NCBI GenBank assembly: GCA_964353755.1
Contig: CAYGYC010000002.1
Coordinates: 1 to 38,678 of the forward strand
Direction: 5' to 3'
Length of the DNA stretch: 38,678 nucleotides
Source of the DNA: an uncultured archaeon
GTDB lineage: Archaea; Asgardarchaeota; Lokiarchaeia; Helarchaeales; HEL-GB-A
Below the pieces are notes generated by a model. That model did no database searches. It was not told the origin of the DNA and saw nothing but the letters and a program-made list of their open reading frames with translations. Position numbers and translations under genes: made by a program. Position 1 is the first letter of the stretch; every line of letters begins with the position of its first letter. Below, piece after piece: positions 15,326-37,068 of this stretch.

Positions 15326-15865
15326 TTATTCCAAACTAACTGCCCAAATCGTTTCTCGGCCTTTCTTGCCGTCGCGCTTAATTTTCCCTGAAAGCACTAG
15401 TTCGAGAAGGTAGCGTCGGATTGTTTGCGTATTAAACTTGAAATAATTCTTTAATTCGGAGATGGTCATTTTCTGCTGTTCTTGGAGCATATCGAACATG
15501 TTTTCTTTGATGGATTTCGGCTGCGCGGGTTTCGAGGCTACTTTAGGATAATACCGTTGTGCAAATTTCAGTAATTCGCTGTAATTCTGCAGACTTTTAC
15601 TCCCATCCAGAAAGAGGAGCAATAAGTTCATTTCTTCGGGATACGCAACGACATAGAAATCTTCAAAGAAAATGGCCCGGGGTTTGATTCCATTGCCGCT
15701 TTGAAACATTAAATAGAAGGGGGTACAGAATTTTTCTAGATCGACTTCAAAGTCCTTGGCCAGAGATTTATTCCATTCGATTATTGGTCCTTTTAATGTA
15801 TCGAATCCAATCATCGCTATTTTCTTAACTTGATCCGTTGTCATTTCCATCTTTCTCTTCACCAT
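15326..15865 (-). CDS. longin/roadblock-like domain + C-terminal winged-helix fusion protein (putative GTPase partner)
   Basis: The N-terminal ~100 aa (IAMIGFDTLKGPIIEWNK...FYVVAYPEEMNLLLLFLDGS...) looks like an alpha/beta regulatory module. The C-terminus MTISELKNYFKFNTQTIRRYLLELVLSGKIKRDGKKGRETIWAV is wHTH-like. Possible starts are 15865, 15850 (preceded by a GGTGA SD), 15844 or 15814. The first three overlap the GTPase 3' end. Confidence 0.75.
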   Translation of the reverse strand: MVKRKMEMTTDQVKKIAMIGFDTLKGPIIEWNKSLAKDFEVDLEKFCTPFYLMFQSGNGIKPRAIFFEDFYVVAYPEEMNLLLLFLDGSKSLQNYSELLKFAQRYYPKVASKPAQPKSIKENMFDMLQEQQKMTISELKNYFKFNTQTIRRYLLELVLSGKIKRDGKKGRETIWAVSLE

Positions 15866-16340
15866 TCGTTGCCTTTAATAATTCTTTTATCAAAATATAA
15901 TACAGTTTCTCTTTTTGATGCGTATCTATTGCTGTTAGTCCATAAGTTGGCACTTGTAAGACATTCTCAACGCGTTTTGCACTGAAATGACCATCGATAT
16001 CCTGTTTATTAGCTATTGCCACAACACGCGCGTTCTGGTGCGTGTGATTCACCCAATCCACCAACTGCTTAGTTTGCAGAACATTTTGAGGCGATGAATC
16101 CGTTACCACGAAGACTAAAAATGAACCGTTTAAAAATTGATCCCAAAACGGTTGAAATGCCGCTTGTCCTCCTATGTCCCAAAGTTTCACCTCATGTTCC
16201 CCAAATTGTAAACTGGCGAAGTCTAATCCGATGGTCGGCTTGTAATCGAGTGGGGGGACTTTCCCTGATAATAATTTTATCAACGTGGATTTTCCTACTG
16301 ACGGATATCCTAAGAAGGCTACTTTTACGCTTACTCCCAT
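15825..16340 (-). CDS. small GTPase, Arf/Sar-like (Ras superfamily)
   Basis: G1 is GYPSVGKST, switch I is KPTIG, G3 is WDIGGQ followed by AAFQPFW (Arf-type WDxGGQ..RPLW), and G4 is NKQD. The 171-aa protein begins MG. Confidence 0.9.
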   Translation of the reverse strand: MGVSVKVAFLGYPSVGKSTLIKLLSGKVPPLDYKPTIGLDFASLQFGEHEVKLWDIGGQAAFQPFWDQFLNGSFLVFVVTDSSPQNVLQTKQLVDWVNHTHQNARVVAIANKQDIDGHFSAKRVENVLQVPTYGLTAIDTHQKEKLYYILIKELLKATNGEEKDGNDNGSS

Positions 16341-23400: not shown

Positions 23401-24697
23401 TGATTTTCACTTCTTCAGCTGATAAAAATTTTGAATGCTGTAATAAACTCGCAACTAACCCCGTTACATTGGCTGCCGCTGCACTTGTACTATTAACTAT
23501 CGTATAGAACGTATCCAAAGGTTTTCCATAATTTAAAGCGCCCTGGATAAAGTCACTCACATTAATTGGTAAGTTAGAAGGAATGCTAGGGCGGCAAGAA
23601 ACGATATTCACCCCTGAAGCGAGGAGATCAGGTTTAGTATGAAAGGATAAGGTAGGCCCTCTTCCACTAAATGAGGCTGGTTGATGTGTAAAATCATTGA
23701 AAGCGCCAACGGTAATAGCTACGGGTGCCATACCCGGAGCGCTAATGCTTGAATAGGCAGGGCCCTCATCACCTGCAGCAGTAATCACAATCATTCCCCG
23801 TTTGATCGCAGCAGTTATCGCAAGATTGACTGGATCTTCTGGATAACCTGGCATGGAGAAGCACATGGCAATAATATCTGCCCCATGAACTATAGCATAT
23901 TCAATACCCGAAATGATCCAAGACCATAACCCAATACCTAACTGGCTTAGGACCTTAATGTTCAGAATATCAACTCCCGGCGCAACTCCTTTATAAGTAT
24001 TATTTAATTTTCCATCACCTGTAATGATCCCTGCACAAAATGTCCCATGTCCATGAAAATCTAGCGGGAATGGATCCCCCTCAACCATTGAAATGCCTCC
24101 GAAAGCCAAAATTGAATTATTTAAATCCGGGTGAAAAATATCAACCCCGGTATCTAATAACGCGACAATTACATTAGTTCCATTGTACTTCTCAAGATAA
24201 TTATCAGAGTTTGTGGCGTGCAAGAAATTGGATAGATTTGGAGTAACTATTTCGGAAATCCGGGCCTCATCAGATTGCGTTCCTAGAAAATTTGGAATCG
24301 TAAATTGTTGATCTAACCATATTTTTTCTACTTCTGAAAGACGCGCAATTTTTTCGATTTCTGAAACCGGGGCATAAAAAGCCGCGATAGGAATTAATTG
24401 CCATTCGCGAATAAATCGGATCTCGGGGGATATAGAAGCAATTTTGGGGATTGCATCTTTCATTGCAGTTTTACTGGTAAAGGTAATTATAATTTGCACT
24501 GAATCTAAGATTTTTTCTGAATTCGTTAAAAGAGATTGAAGGTTATAACCTACCTTACTCAGCGTATTATTTAGGCAGTGTCCATTTTGGGGCGTATTAA
24601 TAACCGCACGGGGCACTCCCATTAAAAGTGATGAAAAAATCGCACTAATGAGAATTAGTGAAAATAATTTTTTGTATGGCATCTTATAATAACTCAT
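20414..24697 (-). CDS. very large secreted, C-terminally membrane-anchored subtilisin-like (S8) serine protease rich in N-x-S/T sequons
   Basis: Catalytic triad blocks are VALLDTGVDIFHPDL (Asp), HGHGTFCAGII (His) and NSTSAAAANVTG (Ser). The signal peptide MPYKKLFSLILISAIFSSLLMG follows internal Met 39/44, so I place the start at 24697 (or 24682) rather than 24811, which would overlap the upstream gene. The C-terminal TM is FLGMLIALIITNIIVGILLY, followed by a ~90-aa charged cytoplasmic tail. Confidence 0.88.
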   Translation of the reverse strand: MSYYKMPYKKLFSLILISAIFSSLLMGVPRAVINTPQNGHCLNNTLSKVGYNLQSLLTNSEKILDSVQIIITFTSKTAMKDAIPKIASISPEIRFIREWQLIPIAAFYAPVSEIEKIARLSEVEKIWLDQQFTIPNFLGTQSDEARISEIVTPNLSNFLHATNSDNYLEKYNGTNVIVALLDTGVDIFHPDLNNSILAFGGISMVEGDPFPLDFHGHGTFCAGIITGDGKLNNTYKGVAPGVDILNIKVLSQLGIGLWSWIISGIEYAIVHGADIIAMCFSMPGYPEDPVNLAITAAIKRGMIVITAAGDEGPAYSSISAPGMAPVAITVGAFNDFTHQPASFSGRGPTLSFHTKPDLLASGVNIVSCRPSIPSNLPINVSDFIQGALNYGKPLDTFYTIVNSTSAAAANVTGLVASLLQHSKFLSAEEVKIILQETAISLSTLNPNVQGAGLVNIVAAHSYLVDNSLNTSLTEERLYTPTLFSLGYVRNQNLTAFVTSYGSLIAILESGRNENFTHLIQGQLAIKYNNNVKWLSDMYILRELHNLTSEFSVSQSIITDYSVLCIFSMEAWSSINGFRVNLTLINLESTALHNLTVFSSWSTNLFSNQNNNDTCEFNSIDDIIYVHDSNKGNSSYIGYTGCIPSSAHEINTSESIRTQIQANSLLNNDAISKNKSIAMQWDLISRLNSSKFIRFSQYIGVGGSYQGINDSIYAMKNRFSSENVTNLALLCSNISRLGNINQPYTSNVLLINLGNVVVNDSLGMFIINSTAAQTQTFFSKVIHLGRLAPFEFKWVNASWNPTEVDIYSLFWFAGTESLINELVLYLMGFTEEISQEESYMDNFFARNIFIKDNSFKIHSLFPKIIPFAPQLIHFPNDIGIFNISLTTNYPLNNLQVVPIAGNLPPSWISYSLPSQIQNFGSLQIIITLPQTPIIGSFYHKVNITAENFHIGEVWINFSVQYPAGRILFYKPMNLSFQNLLQIEDLFTIWAERLDTIYGSYFNLYNLCQMNNYDVDDFGLLKQYSNFSLDTVISLPFELPYHTSTFQENYSFISNYDLVIICDPEVNLSQTEVDTLIKFGMNGGSLFFLLEPKTECEHYSINSILNRFGILIKNSFNSITDQIFINPNQHDISRNLTRIRLYTFVTFLNLSVTTLFTQYNGEPTILVNDTLGKILCVGDSSLFNASCITELDNFQFLNNSLNWLLKDTINISIIINKNNESAPLRIGEHLSISIHITSNKGLDLFNNLTLFSCLITPSNRLLYMILFHVQGGWYNTLYLDGWLNETGTYYLVIYANSPSQTSSYGIQQLVLEDAAPPDDDKPPIPQKWATWFQNFLGMLIALIITNIIVGILLYRRRQWKKQMTIVEYKEKLKREVSNIMSEYHLYIKETDEVLDKSEINDPDKLRMILDSQERQKDLLEKLKKFGKQV

Positions 24698-24725
24698 ACT
24701 CCTTATTATAAAAATATGGTTAAAT

Positions 24726-27125
24726 TCATTCATTGAAAATAACAGAGACTTCGTTAGAATTATTTGCAGAGAACGCAAGCGTGATCTCAAGTTTATGAGT
24801 AGCGAGGTCATAGTTCCATTTGACCGATGCCGAATTATCTTTTAATTTTATATCTTGAGGGGGTTTCTTGGAATAAATTAATAATTTCAAGGTAGAATTT
24901 GGGGAATATTGGATCGTAAAACTGAGATTCGCTGAATCAATTTGAATATGTGGAATCAATTTATTTGAACAGGTAACAAATTTCTCATGAGCACCAATTA
25001 ACGCAACTCCCTCTTTAATGAAAGGAGCAAATATGAAATATTTATATCCCATTCGTTTGAGAGTTAAATTTATCTCCTCTTCTGGACCTATTTCCTTGAG
25101 CTCATTCGTGAAGAAATCATAAAGCACTCCTTTCTCTGGATATCCCAACTCTTGTAGAGTTACCTTAGGATCTTTCACGCGGTAGTGCCAAAGATTCACC
25201 ACTACAATGTAACGCCAAAAAAGTCCCCCTCTTTGGGTCCAAGTATCCATAATATAGGGTTTTTGATGAATTTTGAACATTAGATCATTCGCTGTAATCG
25301 GACGATCTGGCTTTAGAAGAAGTCCTTCTTCGGTACAAGTTTTTATGAGCAAATCTCGATTAATCCGCTCTGCCCTATCGCCTGGACAAATGATTCCACC
25401 CCCTAAATTGCTGAGTAAGGTCATCTGCTCAGGGTATAGTTCGCGGTAGAACCCTTGTTTAAGAGGAGTTTTTGTAGTGAGATAACAATCCAAGGAAGGC
25501 CAAATCCCAACTCCCCATGCGAGAATGTTAGTTTGACTAAAGTGAGGATAGTAAAATTGTTTTGTGCCCCGTGCATTATAATCCCCTGTGACTCGGACGT
25601 TAGTCACTGCAGGAAATTTTAAGGCATTAAGAAATGCGCCTGAGGGCGCCATACAATATTGTATTGAGATATTATGCCGATGCGCCGCTTCAGCCATCCA
25701 CGTTAGCCAGTTTTCTGCAGCATATACATCTTCTTGAAGGAATGAAATCCGAGAAAAGGTATTAATAAGCCAATCTTGTTCGTACATGATTAGACCCCAT
25801 TCAGCCGCTTGATTCATGAGAGTATCCCAAAAAGCAGGCTCCATCGGGAGAGCTGCTCGCTTGCTAATGATGGATTTATACTTTTTGAGATAAGGTGATT
25901 TCGGTGAAAACCATCGAGAATGGCATGCCAAGGGCAAATTAATCTTTTCATGAAGTGTTTTCAATCCATTCGGGAATTCTGTTGGAATGGCTTCCCAGAG
26001 AATGGTACCTCCGAAAGCAGCCCCACCGATTAATTTCCCGATCCATTTAAATGGAGGATACTTCCATATCGCATTCATGTCTTTCTGGTACCACCAACTA
26101 TCCAATTGAAAGTATTTAATAGGAATTTTCTTTTCCTGAAAAATGTTGCACGCAGAGGTTATTGTTTGTTCGCAGTTCATCCCTTTTTCTTTGCGATAAT
26201 AATAGTAGGCACCGTTTTGTGTCCAAAACCCGAGATTAGCAAGCACAGGATCGGCATAGGGATCTTTAGGAACTTTATTATGATATTTATGCAGATAATC
26301 GCACCAATCCACAATGGCTTTATTAATGCCTTGCGTAAAAAATAGTAAGGTAGAATGTTCATAGCCCGGGGGTATTTCTTTAATTTGTCCCTCTAAACCG
26401 TGGAAAATCATATCCTCTTGCCCAGTAAAAGCGATCATAAAATGATCTAAAGGCCCTAACACAGCTGCATTCAATTCATTATCATAAAAAACGACAGGTC
26501 CTTGAGTACTTTGCTGGGATATACTTCGCATAGGAGGAGAAAAGATGCCATAACGGAAAGCCAGTACTCTCTGATTGGGCCCCTCCTGATTAAAGGATGG
26601 AAATTTGAAAAAGGGGATGTGTAACTTTTTTGTTGCCACATCTTTGAGTCCTAACGGGAATTCTAGCTGAAATTTGATGATTGGTTGATTTGAATAGATA
26701 TAAATACTAGAGTGGACCCGAATGGCGGTTCCCTCTAGTTCCCATTTCATAAAAATTCGTTCAAAAGTGCCAAAAATATCAGAACTGGTGCTTTTTTCGA
26801 GGGATATGAGTTTAATGCTTTGGTTTTTTTGGGATGCATGGGCAGAGTACCAGCGGTTTTGATAGTGAATTTGAAGGGTTCCATTGGATAATCGCCTTCC
26901 CTTTCCAAAATTTATCTCATACCGACCGAACGCATCAACTATGACCTCCGGAATACAGTTTTGAACTTGATCAAATTCCGGTTGCGCGAATCGGTCTAAT
27001 TTACTAGGACGATAGGCAGCATTAACCCGCAGAGCCCAAATTTTCCAGATAAGTGGTATTAAAAAATACGCTATCACGAAAAAAGAGACAAAAAAGATTA
27101 AAATGCTCCACAAATTCATGGTCAA
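24726..27125 (-). CDS. N-terminally membrane-anchored extracellular protein, possible TIM-barrel glycoside hydrolase (function uncertain)
   Basis: N-terminal TM LWSILIFFVSFFVIAYFLIPLIW. Motifs YFQLDSWWYQKD and MYEQDWL resemble the beta-strand-end acidic motifs of clan GH-D (GH27/31/36) enzymes. That similarity is from memory and is not verified. Confidence 0.75.
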   Translation of the reverse strand: MTMNLWSILIFFVSFFVIAYFLIPLIWKIWALRVNAAYRPSKLDRFAQPEFDQVQNCIPEVIVDAFGRYEINFGKGRRLSNGTLQIHYQNRWYSAHASQKNQSIKLISLEKSTSSDIFGTFERIFMKWELEGTAIRVHSSIYIYSNQPIIKFQLEFPLGLKDVATKKLHIPFFKFPSFNQEGPNQRVLAFRYGIFSPPMRSISQQSTQGPVVFYDNELNAAVLGPLDHFMIAFTGQEDMIFHGLEGQIKEIPPGYEHSTLLFFTQGINKAIVDWCDYLHKYHNKVPKDPYADPVLANLGFWTQNGAYYYYRKEKGMNCEQTITSACNIFQEKKIPIKYFQLDSWWYQKDMNAIWKYPPFKWIGKLIGGAAFGGTILWEAIPTEFPNGLKTLHEKINLPLACHSRWFSPKSPYLKKYKSIISKRAALPMEPAFWDTLMNQAAEWGLIMYEQDWLINTFSRISFLQEDVYAAENWLTWMAEAAHRHNISIQYCMAPSGAFLNALKFPAVTNVRVTGDYNARGTKQFYYPHFSQTNILAWGVGIWPSLDCYLTTKTPLKQGFYRELYPEQMTLLSNLGGGIICPGDRAERINRDLLIKTCTEEGLLLKPDRPITANDLMFKIHQKPYIMDTWTQRGGLFWRYIVVVNLWHYRVKDPKVTLQELGYPEKGVLYDFFTNELKEIGPEEEINLTLKRMGYKYFIFAPFIKEGVALIGAHEKFVTCSNKLIPHIQIDSANLSFTIQYSPNSTLKLLIYSKKPPQDIKLKDNSASVKWNYDLATHKLEITLAFSANNSNEVSVIFNE

Positions 27126-27347: not shown

Positions 27348-27692
27348 ATGGAATTTTGGTGCGACGAATGCGGCAGTTTAATGTATCACCTTAAAAAAGG
27401 CGGTAAAAGTGTTCTTACTTGCAAGCGCTGTGGTTTCACCAAAGAACCCGATGGAGAAATTACTGATGAAGCATTTACAATCTCAACAAAAATCCGACAC
27501 TCCGAAAAAGATCGCATAGAAATTATAAAAGATGATGGTTTAAAGGCAATGCCTACTACCAAAGAGGCACAATGTCCTAAATGTAACAATAGAGAGATAG
27601 CTTATTGGCAAGTACAAACCCGGGGCGCAGATGAAGGGATGACAACATTCTATCGATGCATAAAATGTAAATTCACTTGGCGCGCTTACTAA
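27348..27692 (+). CDS. tfs: transcription factor S (TFS; TFIIS/Rpb9-like cleavage factor)
   Basis: N-terminal Zn ribbon CDECGSLM...CKRCG. C-terminal ribbon CPKCNNREIAYWQVQTRGADEGMTTFYRCIKCKFTW carries the acidic QTR.ADE hairpin. Confidence 0.92.
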   Translation: MEFWCDECGSLMYHLKKGGKSVLTCKRCGFTKEPDGEITDEAFTISTKIRHSEKDRIEIIKDDGLKAMPTTKEAQCPKCNNREIAYWQVQTRGADEGMTTFYRCIKCKFTWRAY

Positions 27693-27753: not shown

Positions 27754-28182
27754 ATGGTTATCGAGAAATTAAAAACAATCAAACAATTCTCCAACATTAA
27801 AGAAATTCTAATTAATAAAGATTTAGCTATGCTCGGAGATTCTTTTGTCAATTTCATCTACTCCCTAGCAAAATCATATGCATTAGAAAAATTCGATGGT
27901 TGGAAAATACCTAATAAAGTGTTAGCTCAAGCCTTACGTGATGCAGAAATGCGTTATTTAGTCTCCCATAAAGCAAGTAGGCATAATTTAGGAGACGCCG
28001 TTGAAGCCCTCATTGTTCATGCTTGGCTCTATCAAAATATTTCCATCGAAGAACTAACCACTATTCTATATACACAATTGAAAACTGGCGACTTTTCAGA
28101 TCGAAAAAAGGAAGAACGCAGTGCTGTCCAGGCATTTACTTCTTTATTGCTGGAAATTCGAAATAAATACAAACTAAAATAA
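27754..28182 (+). CDS. archaeal RNase III-like domain protein
   Basis: LAMLGDSFVNFIYSLAKS and LGDAVEALIVHAWLY align with the two RNase III signature helices (ERLEFLGDA / DAFEALIGA). The first catalytic Glu position is Ala here. Confidence 0.5.
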   Translation: MVIEKLKTIKQFSNIKEILINKDLAMLGDSFVNFIYSLAKSYALEKFDGWKIPNKVLAQALRDAEMRYLVSHKASRHNLGDAVEALIVHAWLYQNISIEELTTILYTQLKTGDFSDRKKEERSAVQAFTSLLLEIRNKYKLK

Positions 28183-28614: not shown

Positions 28615-28830
28615 TTGGCTAGAACCCGAAGGAAAGAGTTAGTATTTTTTTTGAAAGATCCCGAGAAACAGGCAAAATTTCTAGAGACCGTGCATAAGAA
28701 AATTACAATGGTGAATATACATATCGAATCAAAGTTGGATAAAATAAGATTAACGATTTCAGGAACCCATGAAAGCGTACGCTATGCCATTCAAATCATT
28801 AGAGGGATTGAAACTGCCTTAAAAAGTTAA
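28615..28830 (+). CDS. hypothetical small protein (71 aa, TTG start)
   Basis: ORF only. It overlaps the csl4 3' end by 4 nt in convergent orientation. No family recognised. Confidence 0.3.
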   Translation: MARTRRKELVFFLKDPEKQAKFLETVHKKITMVNIHIESKLDKIRLTISGTHESVRYAIQIIRGIETALKS

Positions 28831-29411
28831 GGATGGTAGGTTCCATAATTCTGAGAGACTTTTCGGCTTTCAGTGATATTGCAATTCGCACAATGAAGCC
28901 GCGGTCCTGCTTGTTTTAAAATGGCGCCACACTCAGAACAATAGGCTAAAATGACGCCAAGATCAGGAGCAGCGGTACTAAGGAAAAACGGAATTATGGT
29001 GTCATCTATTACTACAGCCTTGATAATATCTCCGACTTTAAAGGCATCTGAGAGACTTTCAAGATAGGTCTTTGAGACTTGCGAAATATGAATCATTCCT
29101 TCAAAATCAGTTGAAGGATTAAATCCGGGAACATTGGTAATGTCCGCAATTGTCATTTGCTTCCGGACCATGTTTATTTGGCCAACTATAATATCGCCCT
29201 TTTTGGGAAGGGTGGGTTTGTTTTCCTTGGGCATTACTGAAATGCGTTTTTCCTTATTATCGATTTTGATTTCACCAATAATGCAAGAAAATATTATGCC
29301 ATTTTTAGTATACGTTCCTCTACCTGGCATATACATTTCTTCTACGCTGATCTTTTGTCCCGGAATGACGAGATCGCCGGATTTTATCTCACTTTTTTCC
29401 AATTTTATCAA
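28827..29411 (-). CDS. csl4: exosome complex RNA-binding cap protein Csl4
   Basis: N-terminal domain GDLVIPGQKISVEEMYMPGRGTY, S1 domain GDIIVGQINMVRKQMTIADI...GMIHISQV, and C-terminal Zn ribbon CSECGAILKQAGPRLHCANCN. The only usable in-frame start after the upstream stop is TTG at 29411. Confidence 0.88.
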   Translation of the reverse strand: MIKLEKSEIKSGDLVIPGQKISVEEMYMPGRGTYTKNGIIFSCIIGEIKIDNKEKRISVMPKENKPTLPKKGDIIVGQINMVRKQMTIADITNVPGFNPSTDFEGMIHISQVSKTYLESLSDAFKVGDIIKAVVIDDTIIPFFLSTAAPDLGVILAYCSECGAILKQAGPRLHCANCNITESRKVSQNYGTYHP

Positions 29412-29486: not shown

Positions 29487-30140
29487 TTATTGTATTTTTA
29501 CTTTACTAATGATTCGGTAGAGATCTATTTGCACGGGATAGGACTTCTTTTGATGGAACTCAAAAAGATGAGGAATTACTATCTGAAGAGGGATGATGGC
29601 ATCAACGATTGCCTGTTGATTTTGGATCAAATTTCGTAAAAAAGTTTGGTTTTTCGTTCCAGATTTATGGATAGAGTAAATTATTGGCGCATTTCGCATA
29701 GCTTTCTTTAAAAAAATACTATCCATGCCGCGATCTCTCTTCTGTACTCCAAAAGGTGGATTTTGGATGATCACATCAACAGTGATATTAAAATCTTGGA
29801 TATTCATCTGAACCCATCTAATTTTATCAAAAATATTCAGGGTTTTCGCATTTTGATCTGCTATATCTAATTGCCGTCGGTCTATATCAACGCCAATAAC
29901 TTGTTTGGCACCTAATAACGCGGCACCTATTGCTAATAGACCAGTTCCACACCCCAAATCGCCGATCATTTTATTCTGAATGTCGTTGTAGGTATTGGAG
30001 ATGATAGAAAGAATCGTTGAAGCGCCTTGGGGGGTAATGGAATATTGTTCTAATTCGGGTTTAGGATTCTCCATTTCTTTTAAATTTTGCAATACTATTT
30101 CAAGTTTTTTCCTTGAAACTAATCTTTTCTGAGAAACCAT
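29487..30140 (-). CDS. SAM-dependent methyltransferase, COG2263 / METTL5-like (NPPF N6-adenine type)
   Basis: SAM motif I is IGDLGCGTGLLAIGAALLGA, followed by VIGVDID and the catalytic motif IIQNPPFG. The position next to csl4 is conserved in archaea. Confidence 0.85.
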   Translation of the reverse strand: MVSQKRLVSRKKLEIVLQNLKEMENPKPELEQYSITPQGASTILSIISNTYNDIQNKMIGDLGCGTGLLAIGAALLGAKQVIGVDIDRRQLDIADQNAKTLNIFDKIRWVQMNIQDFNITVDVIIQNPPFGVQKRDRGMDSIFLKKAMRNAPIIYSIHKSGTKNQTFLRNLIQNQQAIVDAIIPLQIVIPHLFEFHQKKSYPVQIDLYRIISKVKIQ

Positions 30141-31978: not shown

Positions 31979-32698
31979 ATGTTTGCACCACCCGGTCTTG
32001 GATATGACCGTGCCATAACCCAATTCTCGCCAGATGGCAGGCTCTTTCAGGTTGAATATGCAATAGAGGCGGTTCGGAGAGGCACAACTGCTATTGGAAT
32101 TAGATGTGTAGAAGGTGTGGTTTTAGCAGTTGAAAAAAGAGTATTAAGTTTGCAAGAACCCGAAACCGTTGAAAAACTTTTTACTATTGATGAACATGTG
32201 GGAGCGGCCATTGCGGGCTTAACTGCAGATGCACGAGTTTTAATAGATAATGCCAGAATTCAATCGCAAATTAATCGGTTGTATTACAATGAAGCTATTA
32301 ATCTTTCGGTTTTAACGAAGCGTATTTGCGATTTAAAACAATTGTACACGCAACATGCTGGTGTACGCCCATTTGGCGTTTCCTTATTAATTGCAGGAAT
32401 TGATGATTCACCAAAATTGTTCATGACCGACCCTTCCGGTGCTTTTTGGGGATATCGAGCTCAAGCAATAGGCGCAGGTGCGCAAACCGTTCGCGAAGAA
32501 TTGGAAAAGGAATATGATGAAAATAAATCCATGGAAGAAATTATTATTCTAGCATTAAAGGCACTAAAAAAAGTCATCGAAACGGAGTTAGACCCTACAA
32601 AAGCGGAAATTGCAGTAATTAAAACGGACACTAAAAAATTTGAACGACTTTCATACAGTGAAATGGATAGTTACATCAAAAAAGCACTTAGCAGCTGA
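31979..32698 (+). CDS. psmA: proteasome subunit alpha
   Basis: YDRAITQFSPDGRLFQVEYAIEAV signature. A GAGGT SD lies upstream of the ATG. Confidence 0.96.
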   Translation: MFAPPGLGYDRAITQFSPDGRLFQVEYAIEAVRRGTTAIGIRCVEGVVLAVEKRVLSLQEPETVEKLFTIDEHVGAAIAGLTADARVLIDNARIQSQINRLYYNEAINLSVLTKRICDLKQLYTQHAGVRPFGVSLLIAGIDDSPKLFMTDPSGAFWGYRAQAIGAGAQTVREELEKEYDENKSMEEIIILALKALKKVIETELDPTKAEIAVIKTDTKKFERLSYSEMDSYIKKALSS

Positions 32699-32748
32699 TA
32701 TAATAAGTGAGATAATTAATAACAAAAAGCAATAGTGGTTTGTGAATA

Positions 32749-33465
32749 ATGATGGGAATGCGCGGCGATAAGCGCATAGATTTAGGCGATGCAGTAATAG
32801 CTCGATACGAAACGAGCGGGGAGAAATTTGAAATCCTCGTCCACCCGAATTTAGCTTGGGATTATCGCAAAGGAAAAGAAATAGAAATTAGCGATATATT
32901 AGTGGGTGACACTGTTTTTGAGGACGCACACCGAGGAAAAAAAGCAACCAAAGAAAGTTTACAAAAAGTATTCGGTAACATTGATTCTAGCGAAATTATC
33001 AAGCAGATTCTGACCAACGGAGAAATTCAGCTGACTACTGAGCAAAGACGGAAGATAGTCGAGGAAAAACGAAAGCAAATAATAACCTATATTGCTCAAA
33101 ATGCCATCAATCCACAAACAAGTCTTCCACATCCACCCGCCCGTATAGAGCGAGCTTTGGAGGAAGTAAGAGTTATAATAGATCCGTGGAAAAACGTAGA
33201 AGACCAAGTGAAAGATCTTGTCAGAAGCTTAGAGCCGATATTACCTATCCGATTAGAAAAAATAACCTTCGCCGTTAAATTGCCAGGAAAATTTCAAGCG
33301 AAAGCGTACCAAATAATTATACGGAATGGGACAATAACCAAGGAAGAATGGCAGGCAGATGGAAATTGGATTGCTTTAGTTGAAATGGCAGCTGGAATGC
33401 AACCAAACGTTGTAGACCAATTGAGCAAACTCACAAAAGGCCGTATAGAAGTTAAAAAATTATGA
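32749..33465 (+). CDS. SBDS/Sdo1-family ribosome maturation protein
   Basis: [49 protein letters not shown] matches the FYSH domain. The position between psmA and rrp4 is canonical. Confidence 0.92.
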
Positions 33466-33500
33466 AATTGTTGAAAAATAAAAAGGTTTGAGGTGTTTTT

Positions 33501-33701
33501 ATGAGTATACTTTTTGAAAAGAAAAAAGTTGTTATTCCAGGAGAATCTCTTGCTGAAGGAGATTATAGAGCGGGTTCCGGTACTTATAAAGAAGGAAATT
33601 TAATTAGATCATCTATTATAGGATTGCCGGAAATGAGGAATAATTTCGTTTATGTAATTCCGCTTCAGGGAGCGTATATATCGAATCTAAGATATGCGTA
33701 A
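33501..33701 (+). CDS. rrp4: exosome cap protein Rrp4, N-terminal-domain fragment ending at an in-frame TAA
   Basis: VVIPGESLAEGDYRAGSGTYKEGNLIRSSIIGL...VYVIPLQGAYI is the Rrp4 NTD. It is in the same frame as 33711..34226, separated by TAA and three codons. Confidence 0.8.
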   Translation: MSILFEKKKVVIPGESLAEGDYRAGSGTYKEGNLIRSSIIGLPEMRNNFVYVIPLQGAYISNLRYA

Positions 33702-33710
33702 ATCCCTAAA

Positions 33711-34226
33711 GTGGGAGATATTATAATTGGTAAAGTAATAAGTACCAGCATCGTCTCCTGGAAAATCGATACCAATTCAGCATACGAAGCATCCCTCCAT
33801 GCATCATCTGTTTTAGATCGATCCTTTAATCCGTTGAAAGATGATATTCGAAAACAATTCGATGTAGGAGATTTACTAGCGGCAGAAGTCATTGCATTTA
33901 ATAGAACGAGAGACCCTGTTTTATCAATAAAAGGAAGGGGATTAGGAAAATTAAGAGGAGGACGAATTATAGAGATCCATCCAGCTAAGGTTCCCCGGTT
34001 AATTGGACGAAAAGGGTCAATGATTAATCTAATAAAAAATGAAACGAATAGCCGCATCACCATCGGACAAAATGGATTAGTTTGGGTCAGTGGAAAGGAC
34101 AATGAAACTGAATTGTTGATAGAAAAGTTAATTCGAAAAATTGAGAAAGAGGCTCATACCTCTGGATTAACGGATAGAATAAAAGAACTTATTCAAGAAG
34201 GAATGAAAAAACCTGAGGTGAAATAA
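33711..34226 (+). CDS. rrp4: exosome cap protein Rrp4, S1 + KH portion (tracked with a GTG start)
   Basis: The S1 domain is GDIIIGKVISTSIVSWKIDTNSAYEASLHAS. The KH domain is PAKVPRLIGRKGSMINLIKNETNSRITIGQNGLVWV. The stop abuts the rrp41 ATG. Confidence 0.85.
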   Translation: MGDIIIGKVISTSIVSWKIDTNSAYEASLHASSVLDRSFNPLKDDIRKQFDVGDLLAAEVIAFNRTRDPVLSIKGRGLGKLRGGRIIEIHPAKVPRLIGRKGSMINLIKNETNSRITIGQNGLVWVSGKDNETELLIEKLIRKIEKEAHTSGLTDRIKELIQEGMKKPEVK

Positions 34227-35054
34227 ATGGCTTTATATAGATATCAAGCTCCAAAATCATTAATTGATAAAGAAGGAAAACGGATAGATAATCGAAAATA
34301 TAATGAATTACGCCCCATATCATTTAAAGTCGGAATTTTGCCAAATTGTGATGGCTCTGCTTATATTGAAATGGGCGGAAATAAAATCCTTGCAGGAGTT
34401 TACGGGCCCCGAAAAGTAACCCCCCGCCATCTTGCGCTTCCCAATAAATGTGTGGTCCGGTCATTATATCGCATGGCCACCTTTTCAGTGGATGAAAGAA
34501 AATCACCAGCGCCTAGTCGACGAGAAGTGGAATTGTCTATGGTAATCGCCAATGCATTAGAACCATCTATTTTCGTAGATCAATACCCTAAAACTTTAAT
34601 CGATATAAATATTCAAGTTTTAGCGGCTGATGGAGGCACCCGATGCGCTTCTCTCAATGCCGCCTCCTTGGCTCTCGCAGATGCAGGGATTGCACTCAAA
34701 GATCTAGTTACAGCTGTTGCCGTCGGGAAAGTTAGCGGAAAAATTGTCCTTGATTTAAATGATATTGAAGATAAAGAAGGAGAAGCGGATTTACCGATAG
34801 CCGCCATGCCACAGCATAATGAAATAACCCTGCTTCAATTTGATGGAATAATGACCGAACAGGAGTTTAAAGAAGCCGTAAGTTTGGGGTTAGAAGGAAT
34901 CAAACAAATTTACGTTCTGCAAAAGGAAGCTATTCGGGCAAAATTTGCTGATATTTCTGAAGATATCGCAGAAGAAGGTCCAGAAGATCTTGGTGCTGAA
35001 ATGAAAGACGATAAAAGAGAAAAAAGAAATGAAATGCGTTTCGAGGATGAATGA
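34227..35054 (+). CDS. rrp41: exosome complex exonuclease Rrp41 (RNase PH domain) with acidic C-terminal tail
   Basis: GKRIDNRKYNELRPISFKVGILPNCDGSAYIEMGGNKILAGVYGPR and ADGGTRCASLNAASLALADAGI. Confidence 0.93.
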   Translation: MALYRYQAPKSLIDKEGKRIDNRKYNELRPISFKVGILPNCDGSAYIEMGGNKILAGVYGPRKVTPRHLALPNKCVVRSLYRMATFSVDERKSPAPSRREVELSMVIANALEPSIFVDQYPKTLIDINIQVLAADGGTRCASLNAASLALADAGIALKDLVTAVAVGKVSGKIVLDLNDIEDKEGEADLPIAAMPQHNEITLLQFDGIMTEQEFKEAVSLGLEGIKQIYVLQKEAIRAKFADISEDIAEEGPEDLGAEMKDDKREKRNEMRFEDE

Positions 35055-35881
35055 TCAAAATGGAAACCTACAGAATAATATCAGATTTAGAAAAACGCCA
35101 TATTGAAAATCTTGCGAAAAAAGGACAACGAATTGATGGGCGCGGGCTTAATGAATATCGAGATATCATGATTGAAACAAATTTTATTCCAAAAGCCGAA
35201 GGATCATGCAAAATTTCTCTTGGTAAAACAGAGATTGTTGCAGGTGTGAAAATTTCTACCGGTCCGCCTTATTCGGATACTCCGGAATCTGGCGTTATCA
35301 CCATTAATGCAGAACTTTGCCCTATGGCAGCTCCTCATTTTGAATCGGGTCCACCTAATGAATATTCCGTAGAATTTTCTAGAGTTGTTGATCGTGGCAT
35401 TCGTCATGCTAATATCATCAATAAAGAGAAGCTGATTATTGTACCGAGCGAAAAAGTGTTTATCATCTTCATTGATTTATATGTAATAGGATTTGATGGC
35501 AACTTATTTGATGCTGGGTCATTGGCTGCTGTAAAAGCCTTATCTACTACAATGCTCCCAGAAGTGGATGAAAGCATGATTACTGGTAAAGAGCCTTTGA
35601 AAACTAGAGAAGAATTGAAGTGGCATCCTTTAGAAGTTTTGGACCTCCCTGTTTCAGTAACTGTTGCGAAAATAGGGGACACCTTAATGGTAGATCCGAA
35701 CGCTAATGAAGAGCGAGTTTTAGATAGTAGAATTACCTTCACATTGAATTCCCAAAATGAAATTGTAAGCGCGCAAAAAGGTGAAGCAGGATCTTTCAAG
35801 GTTGATGAAATCTATAAGGCGCTCGGAATGGCTCAGGAAGTCGCTCCGAAGCTCCGAAAATACCTTCAACCTTCCTCTTAA
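35051..35881 (+). CDS. rrp42: exosome complex component Rrp42 (inactive RNase PH subunit)
   Basis: GQRIDGRGLNEYRDIMIETNFIPKAEGSCKISLGKTEIVAGVK. It overlaps rrp41 through an ATGA start/stop junction. Confidence 0.9.
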   Translation: MIKMETYRIISDLEKRHIENLAKKGQRIDGRGLNEYRDIMIETNFIPKAEGSCKISLGKTEIVAGVKISTGPPYSDTPESGVITINAELCPMAAPHFESGPPNEYSVEFSRVVDRGIRHANIINKEKLIIVPSEKVFIIFIDLYVIGFDGNLFDAGSLAAVKALSTTMLPEVDESMITGKEPLKTREELKWHPLEVLDLPVSVTVAKIGDTLMVDPNANEERVLDSRITFTLNSQNEIVSAQKGEAGSFKVDEIYKALGMAQEVAPKLRKYLQPSS

Positions 35882-35972
35882 ATTTTTTTAAAAAAATTTT
35901 TAATATCTTGAATGTTACATTTACCTAAAACCGATAAAAAAATAAAAAATAAAAAAAAGAGTTGGATTTCCT

Positions 35973-36251
35973 TTGGGTGGAAATACGAAAAAAGTTGGTA
36001 TTACCGGAAGATTTGGCGCACGTTATGGATCTACTGTCCGAAAGAGAGTTAGAAAAGTTGAAGAGCGCATGAAACAGCCTCATAAATGTCCGCGCTGTCT
36101 AACAAAAGCTGTTCATCGGCTAGCTGTGGGGATCTGGCAATGTCGAAAATGTAGTTTGAAATTTTCAGGTGGCGCCTATATGCCAGAAACCGCCGAAGGA
36201 CGAAAAGCTACCCGAGGAACTAAACGTATCGCAAGTCAGACGCAAGAATAG
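35973..36251 (+). CDS. rpl37ae: ribosomal protein eL43 (L37Ae)
   Basis: TKKVGITGRFGARYGSTVRKRVRKVEE plus Zn ribbon CPRC...CRKC. TTG start. Confidence 0.93.
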   Translation: MGGNTKKVGITGRFGARYGSTVRKRVRKVEERMKQPHKCPRCLTKAVHRLAVGIWQCRKCSLKFSGGAYMPETAEGRKATRGTKRIASQTQE

Positions 36252-36271
36252 AATAATTCTCTAACCTGTAA

Positions 36272-36535
36272 GTGGAACCCGAAGTGGAAAGTATAAACGC
36301 AACTATTGCAATCAAATTTAGCGATTCTGACACGGCTGAAACTTTCTTTGCGGCTTTAGAGCCTGAGACTTTAAATACTTTAACAGATAGGTCGTCTATT
36401 TCTATTAAAAAAGAAAAGGATACTATTCAGCTTGAAGTGAATGCTAAAGATATAATAGCATTTCGTTCTACATTAAACTCCTATTTAATTTGGATGAAAG
36501 TGCTCTTCGCTATTGATGAGCTATTCAACCGTTAA
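36272..36535 (+). CDS. pcc1: KEOPS complex subunit Pcc1
   Basis: ATIAIKFSDSDTAETFFAALEPE...IQLEVNAKDIIAFRSTLNSYLIWMKV fits the Pcc1/CTAG pattern (A.D...LRAs.NS.LR). The superoperon position is conserved. GTG start. Confidence 0.75.
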   Translation: MEPEVESINATIAIKFSDSDTAETFFAALEPETLNTLTDRSSISIKKEKDTIQLEVNAKDIIAFRSTLNSYLIWMKVLFAIDELFNR

Positions 36536-36681
36536 CTGATCCTCCAACTCATCCTTAAAGGTTAGTTGAAAAATCCAAAATTTCAAATATACAAAACTCG
36601 GTAAAAAAGTATAGGAAAAATTTATTATAACTTTTAAAAAATGAGAGCGAATTATAATTTATAAAAAAAAGTGAGAAGAAT

Positions 36682-37068
36682 ATGGCAAAAATACCGCCTC
36701 AACTTCAAGATCAATTCTATAAATTCCAACAATTACAGCAAAAGGTAGAAATTTTAGGCAATCAACGTTTACAGCTCGAAAGAGATTTGAAAGAAACCGA
36801 AAGCGCATTGGCAGAATTAGAAAAATTAGTAGATCAAAATGCCGTCGTATTTAAAACGATTGGGGCAATACTCGTCAAAGCGAATAAAGACAAAGTAAAA
36901 GAGGAATTAAGCGATCATAAAGAAACGCTTGATATGAGAATTAAAACCATTCAGAGACAAGAGGAACGAGCAAAGCAAGATTTAGAGGAAAAACGAACGG
37001 CTATTCAAACTGCCTTGCAACAAGCCCAAATGGGCGCTGGTGGAAGTGGATTTCCAGGACCCATGTAA
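36682..37068 (+). CDS. pfdB: prefoldin subunit beta
   Basis: Coiled coil, beta hairpin, coiled coil: FQQLQQKVEILGNQRLQLERDLKETESALAELEKL...VFKTIGAILVKANKDKVKEELSDHKETLDMRIKTIQRQEE. Confidence 0.9.
   Translation: MAKIPPQLQDQFYKFQQLQQKVEILGNQRLQLERDLKETESALAELEKLVDQNAVVFKTIGAILVKANKDKVKEELSDHKETLDMRIKTIQRQEERAKQDLEEKRTAIQTALQQAQMGAGGSGFPGPM

What the first reader, a model, noticed from the sequence alone, without database searches (positions are those of the whole stretch)
33501..34226. Exosome cap gene rrp4 is interrupted by an in-frame TAA inside a 24-nt (8-codon) insertion
ORFs 33501..33701 and 33711..34226 are in the same frame (both start coordinates are divisible by 3). They are separated only by TAA (33699-33701) plus ATC CCT AAA. 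Read through, the junction is VIPLQGAYI-SNLRYA*I-PKVGDIIIGKV. Archaeal Rrp4 as I recall it reads V.PL.G.Y.P.VGD.VIG at the NTD/S1 boundary, so deleting an in-frame 24 nt that spans the stop (for example 33678-33701 or 33681-33704) restores a canonical GAYIPKVGD. The extra segment looks like a decayed tandem duplication. Positions 33672-33695 and 33696-33719 match at 15/24 sites (GCGTATAT versus GCGTAAAT at the start). The TAA aligns with TAT (Tyr) of the first copy, which is a single T-to-A difference. All neighbouring superoperon genes are intact and tightly coupled. Possible explanations are an assembly error or population polymorphism, fresh pseudogenisation of a normally essential subunit, a genuinely split Rrp4 (66-aa ring-binding NTD plus a separately initiated S1-KH protein), or stop-codon read-through.
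Basis: seen in the sequence. Interest (0 to 1): 0.65.

Follow-up and report, generated by a model that had tools for sequence, protein, structure and literature searches.

The report
Predicted mini-intron inside archaeal rrp4 gene
The stop codon that seems to break the exosome gene rrp4 lies in a conserved 24-base insert that folds like the introns of archaeal tRNAs, so it is most likely cut out of the mRNA; this would be a rare protein-gene intron in an Asgard archaeon, a relative of eukaryotes.

Summary
ORF1 (33501-33701, Rrp4 N-terminal domain) and ORF2 (33711-34226, S1+KH) share a frame and are separated by TAA plus 9 nt. Independent assemblies from several studies carry the same sequence.

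It is not an error, a fresh pseudogene or read-through. Thirteen distinct Helarchaeota (Asgard) relatives have a 22-29 nt insert at exactly this codon. Seven insert lengths are not multiples of three. Most in-frame inserts carry two to four stops. Both halves are under purifying selection (dN/dS 0.22 and 0.08, dS about 1-1.5).

It is probably not a true two-protein split. Two lineages have Ala (GCG, GCT) where the others have the GTG "start". No Shine-Dalgarno motif precedes the GTG. The "non-coding" IPK codons before it are conserved.

[quoted passage not shown] Cutting after the second nucleotide of each bulge removes 33678-33701 and gives GAYIPKVGD. That junction matches an intron-less sister allele. 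Synonymous sites in the exon strand of the helix are frozen.

Best explanation (about 0.8): a BHB mini-intron removed by the tRNA-splicing endonuclease and RtcB, as in crenarchaeal cbf5. No RNA data were available, so splicing itself is inferred. Covariation support is weak.

The parts
33501..33677 (+). rrp4 exon 1: N-terminal (ring-binding) domain, codons 1-59, ending ...CAG GGA GCG TAT (Q G A Y)
   Evidence: Pfam ECR1_N_2 and NCBIfam NF003181 positions 1-55. A GAGGTG Shine-Dalgarno motif lies upstream. dN/dS is 0.22.
33663..33671 (+). 5' strand of outer helix h (CUUCAGGGA, exon 1), pairing with 33703-33711
   Evidence: MFE folds of all 13 homologous junctions show it. The codons CTT, GGA and GCG here are the same in all 14 sequences, unlike 58 of the other 59 comparable conserved codons.
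33672..33675 (+). 5' strand of the central 4-bp helix H (GCGU, exon 1), pairing with 33696-33699
   Evidence: 100% of cells are paired in 13 sequences. U14 pairs with G or A at column 43.
33676..33678 (+). 5' bulge B1 (AUA). The predicted 5' splice site lies between 33677 and 33678
   Evidence: Unpaired in the folds of 9 of the 13 junctions, partly paired in the MFE fold of the window and of three others. The cut falls between the 2nd and 3rd bulge residue, the rule stated for cbf5 in PMC2738675. The A33678G variant in X2 and X6 lies in the bulge.
33678..33701 (+). Predicted BHB mini-intron, 24 nt (AUAUCGAAUCUAAGAUAUGCGUAA). It holds the in-frame TAA at 33699-33701
   Evidence: Homologous inserts of 22-29 nt occur at the same codon in 12 other distinct sequences. 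The interior varies and the ends are conserved. Excision gives a full-length Rrp4 and the same junction as the intron-less allele L108.
33679..33694 (+). Inner helix h' with its loop: UAUC (33679-33682), GAAUCUAA loop, GAUA (33691-33694). U33695 is an extra unpaired nucleotide
   Evidence: A closing stem of at least 4 bp is present in 8 of 13 sequences against about 1 expected from shuffles. L020 has UUUC/GAGA, a change on both sides.
33696..33699 (+). 3' strand of central helix H' (GCGU, intron); (A/G)CGU in relatives
33700..33702 (+). 3' bulge B2 (AAA). The predicted 3' splice site lies between 33701 and 33702
   Evidence: It is a 3-nt bulge in the MFE fold of all 13 sequences and in the RNAalifold consensus. 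It is invariant.
33702..34226 (+). rrp4 exon 2: ATC CCT AAA GTG GGA GAT... (I P K V G D), S1 and KH domains, stop at 34224-34226
   Evidence: NCBIfam NF003181 positions 59-220. dN/dS is 0.08. The spliced protein aligns without a gap across the junction to solved Rrp4 structures 2JE6 and 3L7Z.
33703..33711 (+). 3' strand of outer helix h (UCCCUAAAG, exon 2)
31979..37068 (+). Context: the archaeal exosome/proteasome superoperon, psmA (31979-32698), SBDS (32749-33465), rrp4, rrp41 (34227-35054), rrp42 (35051-35881), L37ae (35973-36251), Pcc1 (36272-36535), prefoldin beta (36682-37068)
   Evidence: The same order is found in all relatives.

Best explanation
The 24 nt at 33678-33701 are a bulge-helix-bulge (BHB) mini-intron in the rrp4 pre-mRNA of a Helarchaeota (Asgard) archaeon.

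The proposed structure in the transcript is as follows:
- Exon 1 (CUUCAGGGA-GCGU) pairs with the 3' end of the intron (GCGU) and the start of exon 2 (UCCCUAAAG).
- This gives an outer helix h and a 4-bp central helix H.
- H is flanked on opposite strands by two 3-nt bulges, AUA and AAA.
- A small stem-loop (h') forms inside the intron.

The tRNA-splicing endonuclease EndA would cut after the second nucleotide of each bulge. In Asgard archaea EndA is the broad-specificity (alpha-beta)2 type. An RtcB-type ligase would then join ...GGA GCG UAU to AUC CCU AAA GUG.... The mature mRNA would encode one ordinary 233-aa Rrp4 with the junction GAYIPKVGD.

Unspliced mRNA would yield only the 66-aa N-terminal domain, so the intron could also throttle Rrp4 output. 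That last point is speculative.

What is shown: the sequence anatomy, its conservation, the fit to the BHB geometry and the frame logic. What is inferred: cleavage and ligation in vivo.
For: 1. The interruption is old and conserved. About 25 clusters of S1-KH-only 'proteins' at 76-85% identity appear among the homologues. Every locus fetched has a separate N-terminal-domain ORF in the same superoperon. There are 13 distinct junction sequences with inserts of 22, 24 (x5), 25 (x5), 27 and 29 nt at the same codon.

2. All 13 fold (MFE) into the same architecture, with z-scores from -1.5 to -3.7. L099 is a perfect canonical hBHBh' motif. The fold persists in a 160-nt context. On the alignment 92% of cells pair, against at most 48% when the partners are slid.

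3. The BHB cleavage rule is a cut between bulge residues 2 and 3 (PMC2738675). Applied to each sequence, it yields a full-length 230-238 aa Rrp4. That protein aligns without a gap across the junction to solved Rrp4 structures.

4. L108 (P0001) has no insert and reads GCGTAT|ATCCCTAAAGCG, which is exactly the predicted ligation product. It is the sister of the insert-bearing L019 (200/200 bootstraps) and is nested in the insert clade (200/200). This implies one gain and one precise loss, the pattern described for cbf5.

5. There is no initiator for the second half in L019 (GCG) or in L110/L111 (GCT). No Shine-Dalgarno motif precedes the GTG: -1.5 kcal/mol against -7 to -11.5 for neighbouring operon genes.

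6. There is RNA-level constraint. Of 62 conserved codons that are at least 4-fold degenerate, only 4 use a single codon in all 14 sequences. Three of those four (CTT, GGA, GCG) form the exon strand of h/H (Fisher p about 4e-4). This holds although dS is about 1-1.5. The intron ends, A(U/C)(A/G)... and ...(A/G)CGUAA, are conserved while the interior varies.

7. A closing stem h' of at least 4 bp is present in 8 of 13 sequences against about 1 expected.

8. The enzyme is plausible. Asgard archaea carry the (alpha-beta)2 EndA with the L1 loop that accepts relaxed BHB motifs (PMC5829648). Some Asgard lineages are rich in non-canonical tRNA introns (PMC11291895).
Against: - There is no RNA evidence. 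No metatranscriptome holds this organism, so excision and ligation are unobserved.
- Covariation is weak. Helices h and H are invariant or change on one side only. Only one pair shows a change on both sides, shuffles are not exceeded, and RNAalifold finds no compensatory pair. The structural support therefore rests on compatibility and conservation, and half of the helix is coding sequence.
- Only L099 is a canonical BHB. Most sequences have an extra unpaired nucleotide between h' and H'. The window's MFE fold shows a 2-nt 5' bulge. L001/L112 has no h'. L102 has a weakened h.
- The frozen synonymous sites are also retained in the intron-less L108.
- EndA and RtcB were not looked for in this genome, because only a 38.7-kb window was available.
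Confidence: 0.8

Rival explanations
1. Genuine gene fission. The N-terminal domain (66 aa) and the S1-KH module (171 aa, initiated at GTG 33711) are made as two polypeptides that assemble non-covalently on the exosome ring. The conserved RNA structure would serve termination-reinitiation coupling.
For: Gene callers annotate two ORFs in all relatives. Ten of 13 junctions keep GTG at the boundary and L107 has an ATG one codon later. Both halves are under purifying selection. Only 9 nt separate the stop from the GTG in the window.
Against: L019 (GCG) and L110/L111 (GCT) have no start codon at or near the boundary, so the caller had to begin 11 codons inside the S1 domain. There is no Shine-Dalgarno motif, whereas neighbouring operon genes have GAGGTG. 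GTG is simply the ancestral Val codon of PKVGD. ATC CCT AAA upstream of it would be non-coding, yet it is conserved as I-P-K codons. The distance from stop to GTG varies between relatives. A re-fused allele (L108) matches the BHB ligation product exactly.
Confidence: 0.1
2. Programmed translational bypassing (hopping). The ribosome takes off near GCG UAU and lands after the insert, as in phage T4 gene 60, with the stem-loop as the stimulator.
For: A short gap of variable length lies in a conserved stem-loop. There is a partial repeat GCGUAU / (A/G)CGUAA at the two ends.
Against: There is no matched pair of take-off and landing codons. UAU has no UAU/UAC after the gap. AUA (AUG in L001 and L107) does not match AUC. 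Landing on (A/G)CG would be followed directly by UAA. In the window 7 sense codons precede the stop, so no stop follows a take-off codon. The repeat is explained by the near-palindromic helix H. No such mechanism is known in archaea (my knowledge).
Confidence: 0.03
3. Non-functional lesion: an assembly or sequencing artefact, a population polymorphism, or a recent pseudogene tolerated because Csl4 can cap the exosome.
For: An intact Csl4-like gene lies in the same window at 28827-29411(-). Archaeal exosome caps can use Csl4 or Rrp4 (established knowledge).
Against: Contigs from at least four runs in several studies span the insert unchanged. The insert is shared by a whole clade with dS about 1-1.5 and dN/dS of 0.22 and 0.08 in the two halves. 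The ends of the insert are conserved.
Confidence: 0.02
4. Stop-codon read-through or recoding of TAA, giving a 241-aa Rrp4 with an 8-residue insertion.
For: In the window the two ORFs are in frame with a single TAA between them.
Against: Seven of 13 homologous inserts shift the frame (22, 25 or 29 nt). The other in-frame inserts carry 2-4 stops of different kinds. The insert-encoded residues are not conserved.
Confidence: 0.02

Closest known systems
BHB intron in the cbf5 (pseudouridine synthase) pre-mRNA of Crenarchaeota (Watanabe 2002; Yoshinari 2006; Yokobori 2009, PMC2738675)
   Same: Both are short inserts in a protein-coding gene for an RNA-processing factor. Both interrupt the frame and sit in a mostly relaxed BHB motif. 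The predicted cuts fall between bulge residues 2 and 3. The host has the hetero-oligomeric (alpha-beta)2 EndA. Distribution is clade-restricted, with secondary precise loss.
   Different: The gene differs (rrp4, exosome cap) and so does the phylum (Asgard/Helarchaeota). The intron position is unrelated (the boundary between the N-terminal and S1 domains). The rrp4 intron is 22-29 nt long. For cbf5, splicing was demonstrated by cDNA and in vitro cleavage. Here nothing has been shown at the RNA level.
Archaeal pre-tRNA BHB introns, canonical hBHBh' and relaxed hBH/HBh' (Marck & Grosjean 2003)
   Same: The geometry is the same: a 4-bp helix between two 3-nt bulges on opposite strands, with an outer exon-exon helix and an inner intron helix. 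L099 matches the canonical form exactly. The size lies in the tRNA-intron range of 11-175 nt.
   Different: The host RNA is an mRNA. The exon strands are constrained by codons. There is no tRNA body to help recognition.
HVO_1309 mRNA cleaved at a BHB by the Haloferax volcanii splicing endonuclease (PMC7714728; reviewed in PMC10485636)
   Same: It is another archaeal mRNA that is a substrate of the tRNA-splicing endonuclease.
   Different: It comes from a different organism (Haloferax volcanii, with an alpha2-type endonuclease) and a different gene. It has no relation to rrp4.
Unconventional cytoplasmic splicing of HAC1/XBP1 mRNA (IRE1 cleavage, RtcB or Trl1 ligation)
   Same: A small intron is removed from an mRNA by an endonuclease plus a tRNA ligase. 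This changes the reading frame or the C-terminal part of the protein, and it has regulatory potential.
   Different: The nuclease is different (IRE1) and recognises twin stem-loops, not a BHB. The system is eukaryotic and stress-regulated. No regulation is shown here.
Translational bypass in phage T4 gene 60
   Same: A short untranslated gap inside one coding sequence is associated with a stem-loop.
   Different: It requires matched take-off and landing codons and a stop right after take-off. Both are absent here.

Membership tests
Archaeal BHB intron (substrate of the EndA splicing endonuclease) | Two 3-nt bulges on opposite strands separated by a 4-bp helix | tested here: met
   MFE folds of all 13 junctions give H = GCGU/(A|G)CGU and a 3-nt 3' bulge AAA. 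L099 is canonical, with a clean 3-nt 5' bulge AUA. Eight others show the same AUA/ACA 5' bulge but with an extra unpaired nucleotide between h' and H', or a wider loop. Four have a shorter 5' bulge in the MFE fold (2 nt in the window, 1 nt in L101, L102 and L110). This is prediction only, with no structure probing.
Archaeal BHB intron (substrate of the EndA splicing endonuclease) | Flanking helices h (exon-exon) and h' (intron-intron) | tested here: met
   Helix h has at least 4 bp in 12 of 13 sequences and is weakened in L102. Helix h' has at least 4 contiguous bp in 8 of 13, is interrupted in 4 and is absent in L001/L112, which makes that one an hBH-type relaxed motif.
Archaeal BHB intron (substrate of the EndA splicing endonuclease) | Cutting between bulge residues 2 and 3 and joining the exons gives the functional RNA | tested here: met
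   The rule is quoted from PMC2738675. Applied to all 13 sequences it restores one ORF of 230-238 aa with GAYIPK(V/A)GD. The result is identical to the intron-less allele L108 and aligns gap-free to 2JE6.
Archaeal BHB intron (substrate of the EndA splicing endonuclease) | Base-pairing supported by compensatory changes | tested here: inconclusive
   There is one change on both sides (L020, A-U to U.G) and several one-sided changes (U.G to U-A, G-C to G.U). Shuffle controls are not exceeded and RNAalifold finds no covarying pair.
Archaeal BHB intron (substrate of the EndA splicing endonuclease) | Spliced RNA, or the excised (often circular) intron, observed in vivo or in vitro | not testable with these tools
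   No RNA run holds this organism.
Archaeal BHB intron (substrate of the EndA splicing endonuclease) | Host encodes a splicing endonuclease able to cut relaxed motifs, plus an RtcB ligase | not tested
   Neither is in the 38.7-kb window. The literature reports that Asgard archaea have the (alpha-beta)2 EndA with the L1 loop (PMC5829648).
Split gene (fission into two independently translated cistrons) | The downstream part has its own start codon and ribosome-binding site in all members | tested here: not met
   L019 has GCG and L110/L111 have GCT at the boundary. There is no Shine-Dalgarno motif: -1.5 kcal/mol against -7 to -11.5 for neighbouring genes.
Stop-codon read-through / recoding | The two parts are in the same frame with a single recoded stop, conserved among relatives | tested here: not met
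   Seven of 13 inserts are not multiples of 3, and most in-frame inserts carry several stops.
Programmed ribosomal bypass (T4 gene 60 type) | Identical take-off and landing codons flanking the gap | tested here: not met
   No codon pair at the two ends matches in a way that gives the conserved product.
Pseudogene | Relaxed selection, or decay, in the interrupted gene | tested here: not met
   dN/dS is 0.22 for exon 1 and 0.08 for exon 2, with dS about 0.9-1.6.
Exosome cap protein Rrp4 | N-terminal domain + S1 + KH architecture, encoded next to rrp41/rrp42 | tested here: met
   The read-through protein scores 260.8 bits against NCBIfam NF003181 (cut-off 200). Pfam finds ECR1_N_2, RRP4_S1 and KH. 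The gene order matches. The best solved-structure match is 3L7Z/2JE6 at E = 4e-50.

The most novel reading that the evidence does not exclude
The intron is not just tolerated but acts as a switch. Splicing by the tRNA-splicing machinery would set how much full-length Rrp4 is made relative to a free 60-70-aa ring-binding N-terminal domain. This would couple exosome cap composition (Rrp4 versus the Csl4 encoded nearby) to the state of the RNA-processing machinery. It would be an archaeal counterpart of HAC1/XBP1-type regulated unconventional mRNA splicing, in the lineage closest to eukaryotes. A weaker version is that such BHB mini-introns are scattered through protein-coding genes of Helarchaeota and are routinely mis-annotated as split genes.
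Probability: 0.12. Interest if true: 0.85.

Novelty: new member of a known kind. Interest (0 to 1): 0.62.

Why it matters
Introns of the tRNA (BHB) type inside protein-coding genes are extremely rare. A 2023 review counts two archaeal genes, cbf5 and HVO_1309, and expects more (PMC10485636). My searches of the held library found no report for rrp4, for Helarchaeota or for any Asgard protein gene.

If confirmed, this would have several consequences:
- It would be the first protein-gene BHB intron in Asgard archaea, the closest known relatives of eukaryotes.
- It would show that endonuclease-plus-ligase mRNA splicing operates there on a core RNA-decay gene.
- It would provide a second clean case of intron gain and precise loss.
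- It would correct a systematic annotation error. Dozens of database entries list 'KH domain protein', 'hypothetical protein' or a truncated Rrp4 where one intact Rrp4 is probably made.
- It would give a concrete template for finding more such introns behind apparent split genes and pseudogenes in archaeal metagenome-assembled genomes.

Tried and rejected
- RNA evidence: three searches for RNA runs (reads laid) found nothing for this organism.
- Scan of genome contigs with the single protein: it returned only one close relative, L001, and otherwise distant archaea with uninterrupted rrp4.
- Internal control for the cleavage rule: no tRNA gene lies in the window, and no intron-containing tRNA lies in 50 loci. 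The rule was taken from PMC2738675 instead.
- Generic scan of the window for BHB motifs that join ORFs: it recovered the rrp4 site. Chance motifs are abundant (694 real against 650 in the reversed sequence). The other 20 'joins' include intergenic spacers that merely fuse adjacent genes (for example at about 4400-4540 on the - strand), and none looked like a second interrupted gene, though I did not examine them individually. No second candidate was found, and the scan is not specific.
- Covariation tests: they gave no significant signal.
- Read-through, pseudogene, artefact and bypass readings: considered and rejected for the reasons given under the rival explanations.
Duplication remains a possible origin of the insert. 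It is not an explanation of its conservation.
Full report
**1. The observation**

- ORF1 runs 33501-33701, is 66 aa long and ends in TAA at 33699-33701.
- Nine bases follow (ATC CCT AAA).
- ORF2 starts at GTG 33711, runs to 34226 and is 171 aa long. It is in the same frame as ORF1.

Pfam and NCBIfam identify ORF1 as the Rrp4 N-terminal domain (NF003181 positions 1-55). ORF2 is the S1 and KH domains (positions 59-220). The read-through protein scores 260.8 bits against the Rrp4 equivalog, whose cut-off is 200.

The gene sits in the usual superoperon: psmA, SBDS, rrp4, rrp41, rrp42, L37ae, Pcc1, prefoldin.

The DNA is not an assembly artefact. Contigs from runs X1 (depth 18, identical), X2 (another study, 98% identical, no indel), X5 and X6 span the junction with the insert and the TAA. 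The only local variant is A33678G.

**2. The interruption is shared by a whole clade**

A protein search with the read-through sequence gave an unexpected result. About 25 of the closest clusters (76-85% identity) are 154-180 aa proteins that cover only the S1-KH part. Where a source names them, they are called Helarchaeota. The closest full-length protein is P0001 (230 aa, 75% identity).

I fetched the loci. In all of them the superoperon is the same, and a separate 60-73 aa N-terminal-domain ORF precedes the S1-KH ORF.

I extracted the junctions. There are 13 distinct sequences:
- the window
- L001 (identical to L112, Hel_GB_A)
- L019 and L020
- L099 (identical to L100)
- L101 to L107
- L110 (identical to L111)

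All read ...CTTCAGGGA GCGTA(T/C) [insert] AT(C/T)CC(T/G)AAAG(T/C)(G/T)GG(A/C)GAT.... L107, whose exon 2 reads ...AAAGTGATGGAT, fell outside the search pattern and was added by hand. The inserts are 22, 24 (x5), 25 (x5), 27 and 29 nt long. The insert always begins A(T/C)... and ends (A/G)CGTAA. Its interior varies in sequence and length.

Among 81 metagenome loci screened, only L001, L019 and L020 are interrupted in the same way; L021 is cut off by its contig end, and L098 is broken elsewhere (a stop 29 codons upstream, which I did not follow up). The next relative, L022 (63% identity), and the more distant ones are continuous.

**3. What this excludes**

*Read-through.* Seven of 13 inserts are not multiples of three. 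Five of the six in-frame inserts contain 2-4 stops. The window is the only case with a single stop.

*Fresh pseudogene.* Pairwise dN/dS is 0.22 for the N-terminal part and 0.08 for S1-KH. Synonymous divergence is about 0.9-1.6 substitutions per site. The interrupted state is therefore ancient, and both halves are maintained.

*Independent initiation of the S1-KH half.*
- In L019 the codon at the boundary is GCG, and in L110/L111 it is GCT. Both give IPKAGD. No ATG, GTG or TTG is nearby, and the gene caller had to start 11 codons inside the S1 domain.
- GTG in the others is simply the ancestral valine of PKVGD.
- Neighbouring operon genes have GAGGTG-type Shine-Dalgarno motifs, with duplex energies of -7 to -11.5 kcal/mol. 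The stretch before the GTG has none (-1.5 kcal/mol).
- The three codons ATC CCT AAA before the GTG would be non-coding in a split gene. They are conserved as I-P-K.

**4. What it looks like**

Folding 48-55 nt around each of the 13 junctions gives the same minimum-free-energy architecture every time.
- Exon 1 CUU.AGGGA pairs with exon 2 UCCCU.AAG. This is helix h.
- Helix h continues directly into a 4-bp helix H, where GCGU of exon 1 pairs with (A/G)CGU at the 3' end of the insert.
- On the 3' strand, a 3-nt bulge AAA separates H from h.
- On the 5' strand, AUA (or ACA) follows H. It is a clean 3-nt bulge in 9 of the 13 MFE folds and is partly paired in the other four.
- Then comes a small stem-loop h' inside the insert.

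Z-scores against dinucleotide shuffles range from -1.5 to -3.7. The fold persists in a 160-nt context.

This is the hBHBh' motif that the archaeal tRNA-splicing endonuclease recognises. L099 is a perfect canonical example: (((((((((...((((((.....))))))))))...))))). The others are relaxed versions.
- Most have one extra unpaired nucleotide between h' and H'.
- The window's MFE fold has a 2-nt 5' bulge. The 3-nt alternative is slightly less stable.
- L001/L112 lacks h'.
- L102 has a weakened h.

Relaxed motifs are what the (alpha-beta)2 EndA with the L1 loop cleaves, and Asgard archaea have that enzyme (PMC5829648). The cbf5 introns are also mostly 'unconventional' BHBs.

**5. The splice-site test**

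The rule is a cut between the second and third residues of each bulge (PMC2738675).
- It places the 5' cut between 33677 and 33678.
- It places the 3' cut between 33701 and 33702.
- The intron is therefore 33678-33701 (AUAUCGAAUCUAAGAUAUGCGUAA).
- The ligated mRNA reads GGA GCG UAU | AUC CCU AAA GUG, which is G A Y I P K V.

Applied to all 13 sequences, the rule restores a single 230-238 aa ORF. The spliced window protein aligns without any gap across the junction to the solved S. solfataricus Rrp4: VIPLQGA.YIPKVGDIIIGKV against VIPLEGSFYYPKINDIVIGLV.

Because of the AU repeat, three neighbouring cut registers give the same product. The BHB register is one of them. The register one base to the left, and registers three or more to the right, do not.

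It is not a mutated TAT.

**6. An intron-less allele**

L108/L109 (P0001) reads CTTCAAGGAGCGTAT|ATCCCTAAAGCGGGCGAT. This is exactly the predicted ligation product.

In a neighbour-joining tree of the spliced proteins with ten intron-less outgroups:
- the insert-bearing sequences plus L108 form one clade (200/200 bootstraps);
- L108 is the sister of insert-bearing L019 (200/200).

This implies one gain at the base of the clade and one precise secondary loss. The same pattern was reported for the cbf5 intron, where replacement by a copy of the spliced mRNA was proposed.

**7. RNA-level constraint**

There are 62 alignment columns where the amino acid is invariant and the codon is at least 4-fold degenerate. 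Only four of them use one codon in all 14 sequences. Three of those four are L55 CTT, G57 GGA and A58 GCG, which form the exon-1 strand of h/H directly before the insert.

Counting P61 as the fourth helix column gives 3 of 4 inside the helix against 1 of 58 outside it (Fisher p about 4e-4). Synonymous sites elsewhere are near saturation.

A closing stem of at least 4 bp next to the bulge occurs in 8 of 13 inserts, against about 1 expected from shuffled interiors. The sequences are related, so this figure is not a true probability.

**8. Weak points**

- Formal covariation is poor. On the MAFFT alignment A2, 92.3% of cells pair, against at most 48% for slid partners. But only one pair shows a change on both sides (L020, A-U to U.G). 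The shuffle control is not exceeded. RNAalifold recovers h, H and the 3' bulge without any compensatory pair.
- Half of the helix is coding sequence, and the intron-less L108 keeps the same codons.
- Above all there is no RNA evidence.
- EndA and RtcB are not in the window.

**9. Rivals**

*True fission (0.10).* This remains possible for the lineages that keep GTG. It fails for L019 and L110, and it does not explain the conserved IPK codons, the missing Shine-Dalgarno motif or the BHB geometry.

*Ribosomal bypass (0.03).* This lacks matched take-off and landing codons. UAU has no UAU/UAC downstream. AUA or AUG does not match AUC. Landing on (A/G)CG would be followed directly by UAA.

*Artefact or pseudogene, and read-through (0.02 each).* Both are contradicted as set out in section 3. 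An intact Csl4-like gene at 28827-29411(-) means that Rrp4 loss might be survivable. Selection on both halves argues against loss.

**10. Comparison with what is known**

The closest known system is the BHB intron of crenarchaeal cbf5. The only other archaeal mRNA listed as a substrate of the splicing endonuclease is Haloferax HVO_1309 (PMC10485636: 'at least two archaeal genes... more remain to be discovered').

Asgard lineages are already known for abundant non-canonical tRNA introns (PMC11291895). Five literature searches found no report of an intron in rrp4, in Helarchaeota protein genes or in any Asgard protein gene. The library does not cover everything.

I therefore file this as a new member of a known kind. 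It meets the sequence and structure criteria of a BHB intron. The decisive criterion, observed splicing, is untested.

**11. Verdict**

The best explanation, at about 0.8, is a 24-nt BHB mini-intron (33678-33701) in rrp4 pre-mRNA. It is conserved, with gain and loss, in a Helarchaeota clade and is presumably removed by EndA and RtcB to give a normal Rrp4.

Interest is 0.62. A specialist would find a protein-gene BHB intron in Asgard archaea notable and directly testable. The mechanism has a precedent, and the evidence here is comparative only.

Noticed in passing
window 28827-29411 (-): A 194-aa ORF carries an ECR1_N domain (Pfam E = 3.6e-12). It is probably the alternative exosome cap protein Csl4 and is intact. 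It lies next to a methyltransferase gene at 29487-30140 (-). It matters for whether Rrp4 is dispensable.
   Followed up: partly
window 33678 (runs X2, X6): There is a population or strain variant A33678G, in the third nucleotide of the predicted 5' bulge, which is the first intron nucleotide. It occurs in two runs of one wetland study. The rest of the insert is unchanged.
   Followed up: partly
run X6, contig 5 laid on window 33654-33686: The same wetland sample also holds a second, L019-type rrp4 allele. Its loose end reads TAAGAAAGATAGACGTAAATCCCGAAAGCG, meaning a 27-nt insert and GCG instead of GTG. Two insert-bearing Helarchaeota lineages therefore co-occur.
   Followed up: no
database entries P0058 (154 aa), P0060 (160 aa); loci L110/L111: Gene callers truncate the S1 domain where the boundary codon is not GTG. 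Where it is GTG they split Rrp4 into two 'genes'. NCBI names include 'KH domain-containing protein', 'hypothetical protein' and 'RNA-binding protein'. This is a systematic mis-annotation across the clade.
   Followed up: partly
window 15825-16340 (-) and 1695-2816 (+): An Arf/Ras-family small GTPase and a leucine-rich-repeat protein are present. Both are typical Asgard 'eukaryotic signature' proteins and fit the Helarchaeota placement. The GTPase ORF overlaps by 41 nt an ORF with a DeoR-type HTH (15326-15865, -).
   Followed up: no
window 20414-24811 (-) and 24726-27125 (-): A 1465-aa subtilase-family ORF and a 799-aa ORF with no Pfam match overlap by 86 nt in different frames. This may only reflect the ORF finder's longest-start rule. 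It could also be one very large gene with a frame break. I did not examine it.
   Followed up: no
window 16515-18344 (+): The ribonucleotide reductase large subunit (609 aa) matches the Pfam barrel domain in two separate stretches. I did not check whether this reflects an insertion or just divergence.
   Followed up: no
window 27754-28182 (+): A 142-aa ORF matches PF11469 (archaeal RNase III-like, Ribonucleas_3_2). It lies next to a TFS/TFIIS-type zinc-ribbon gene at 27348-27692. This is another RNA-processing gene near the exosome operon.
   Followed up: no
L098 around 480-600: A distant rrp4 homologue appears to have its N-terminal domain in a different frame from the S1 domain (frame -2 against frame 0), without the insert described here. 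It may be a frameshift or sequencing error in that contig.
   Followed up: no
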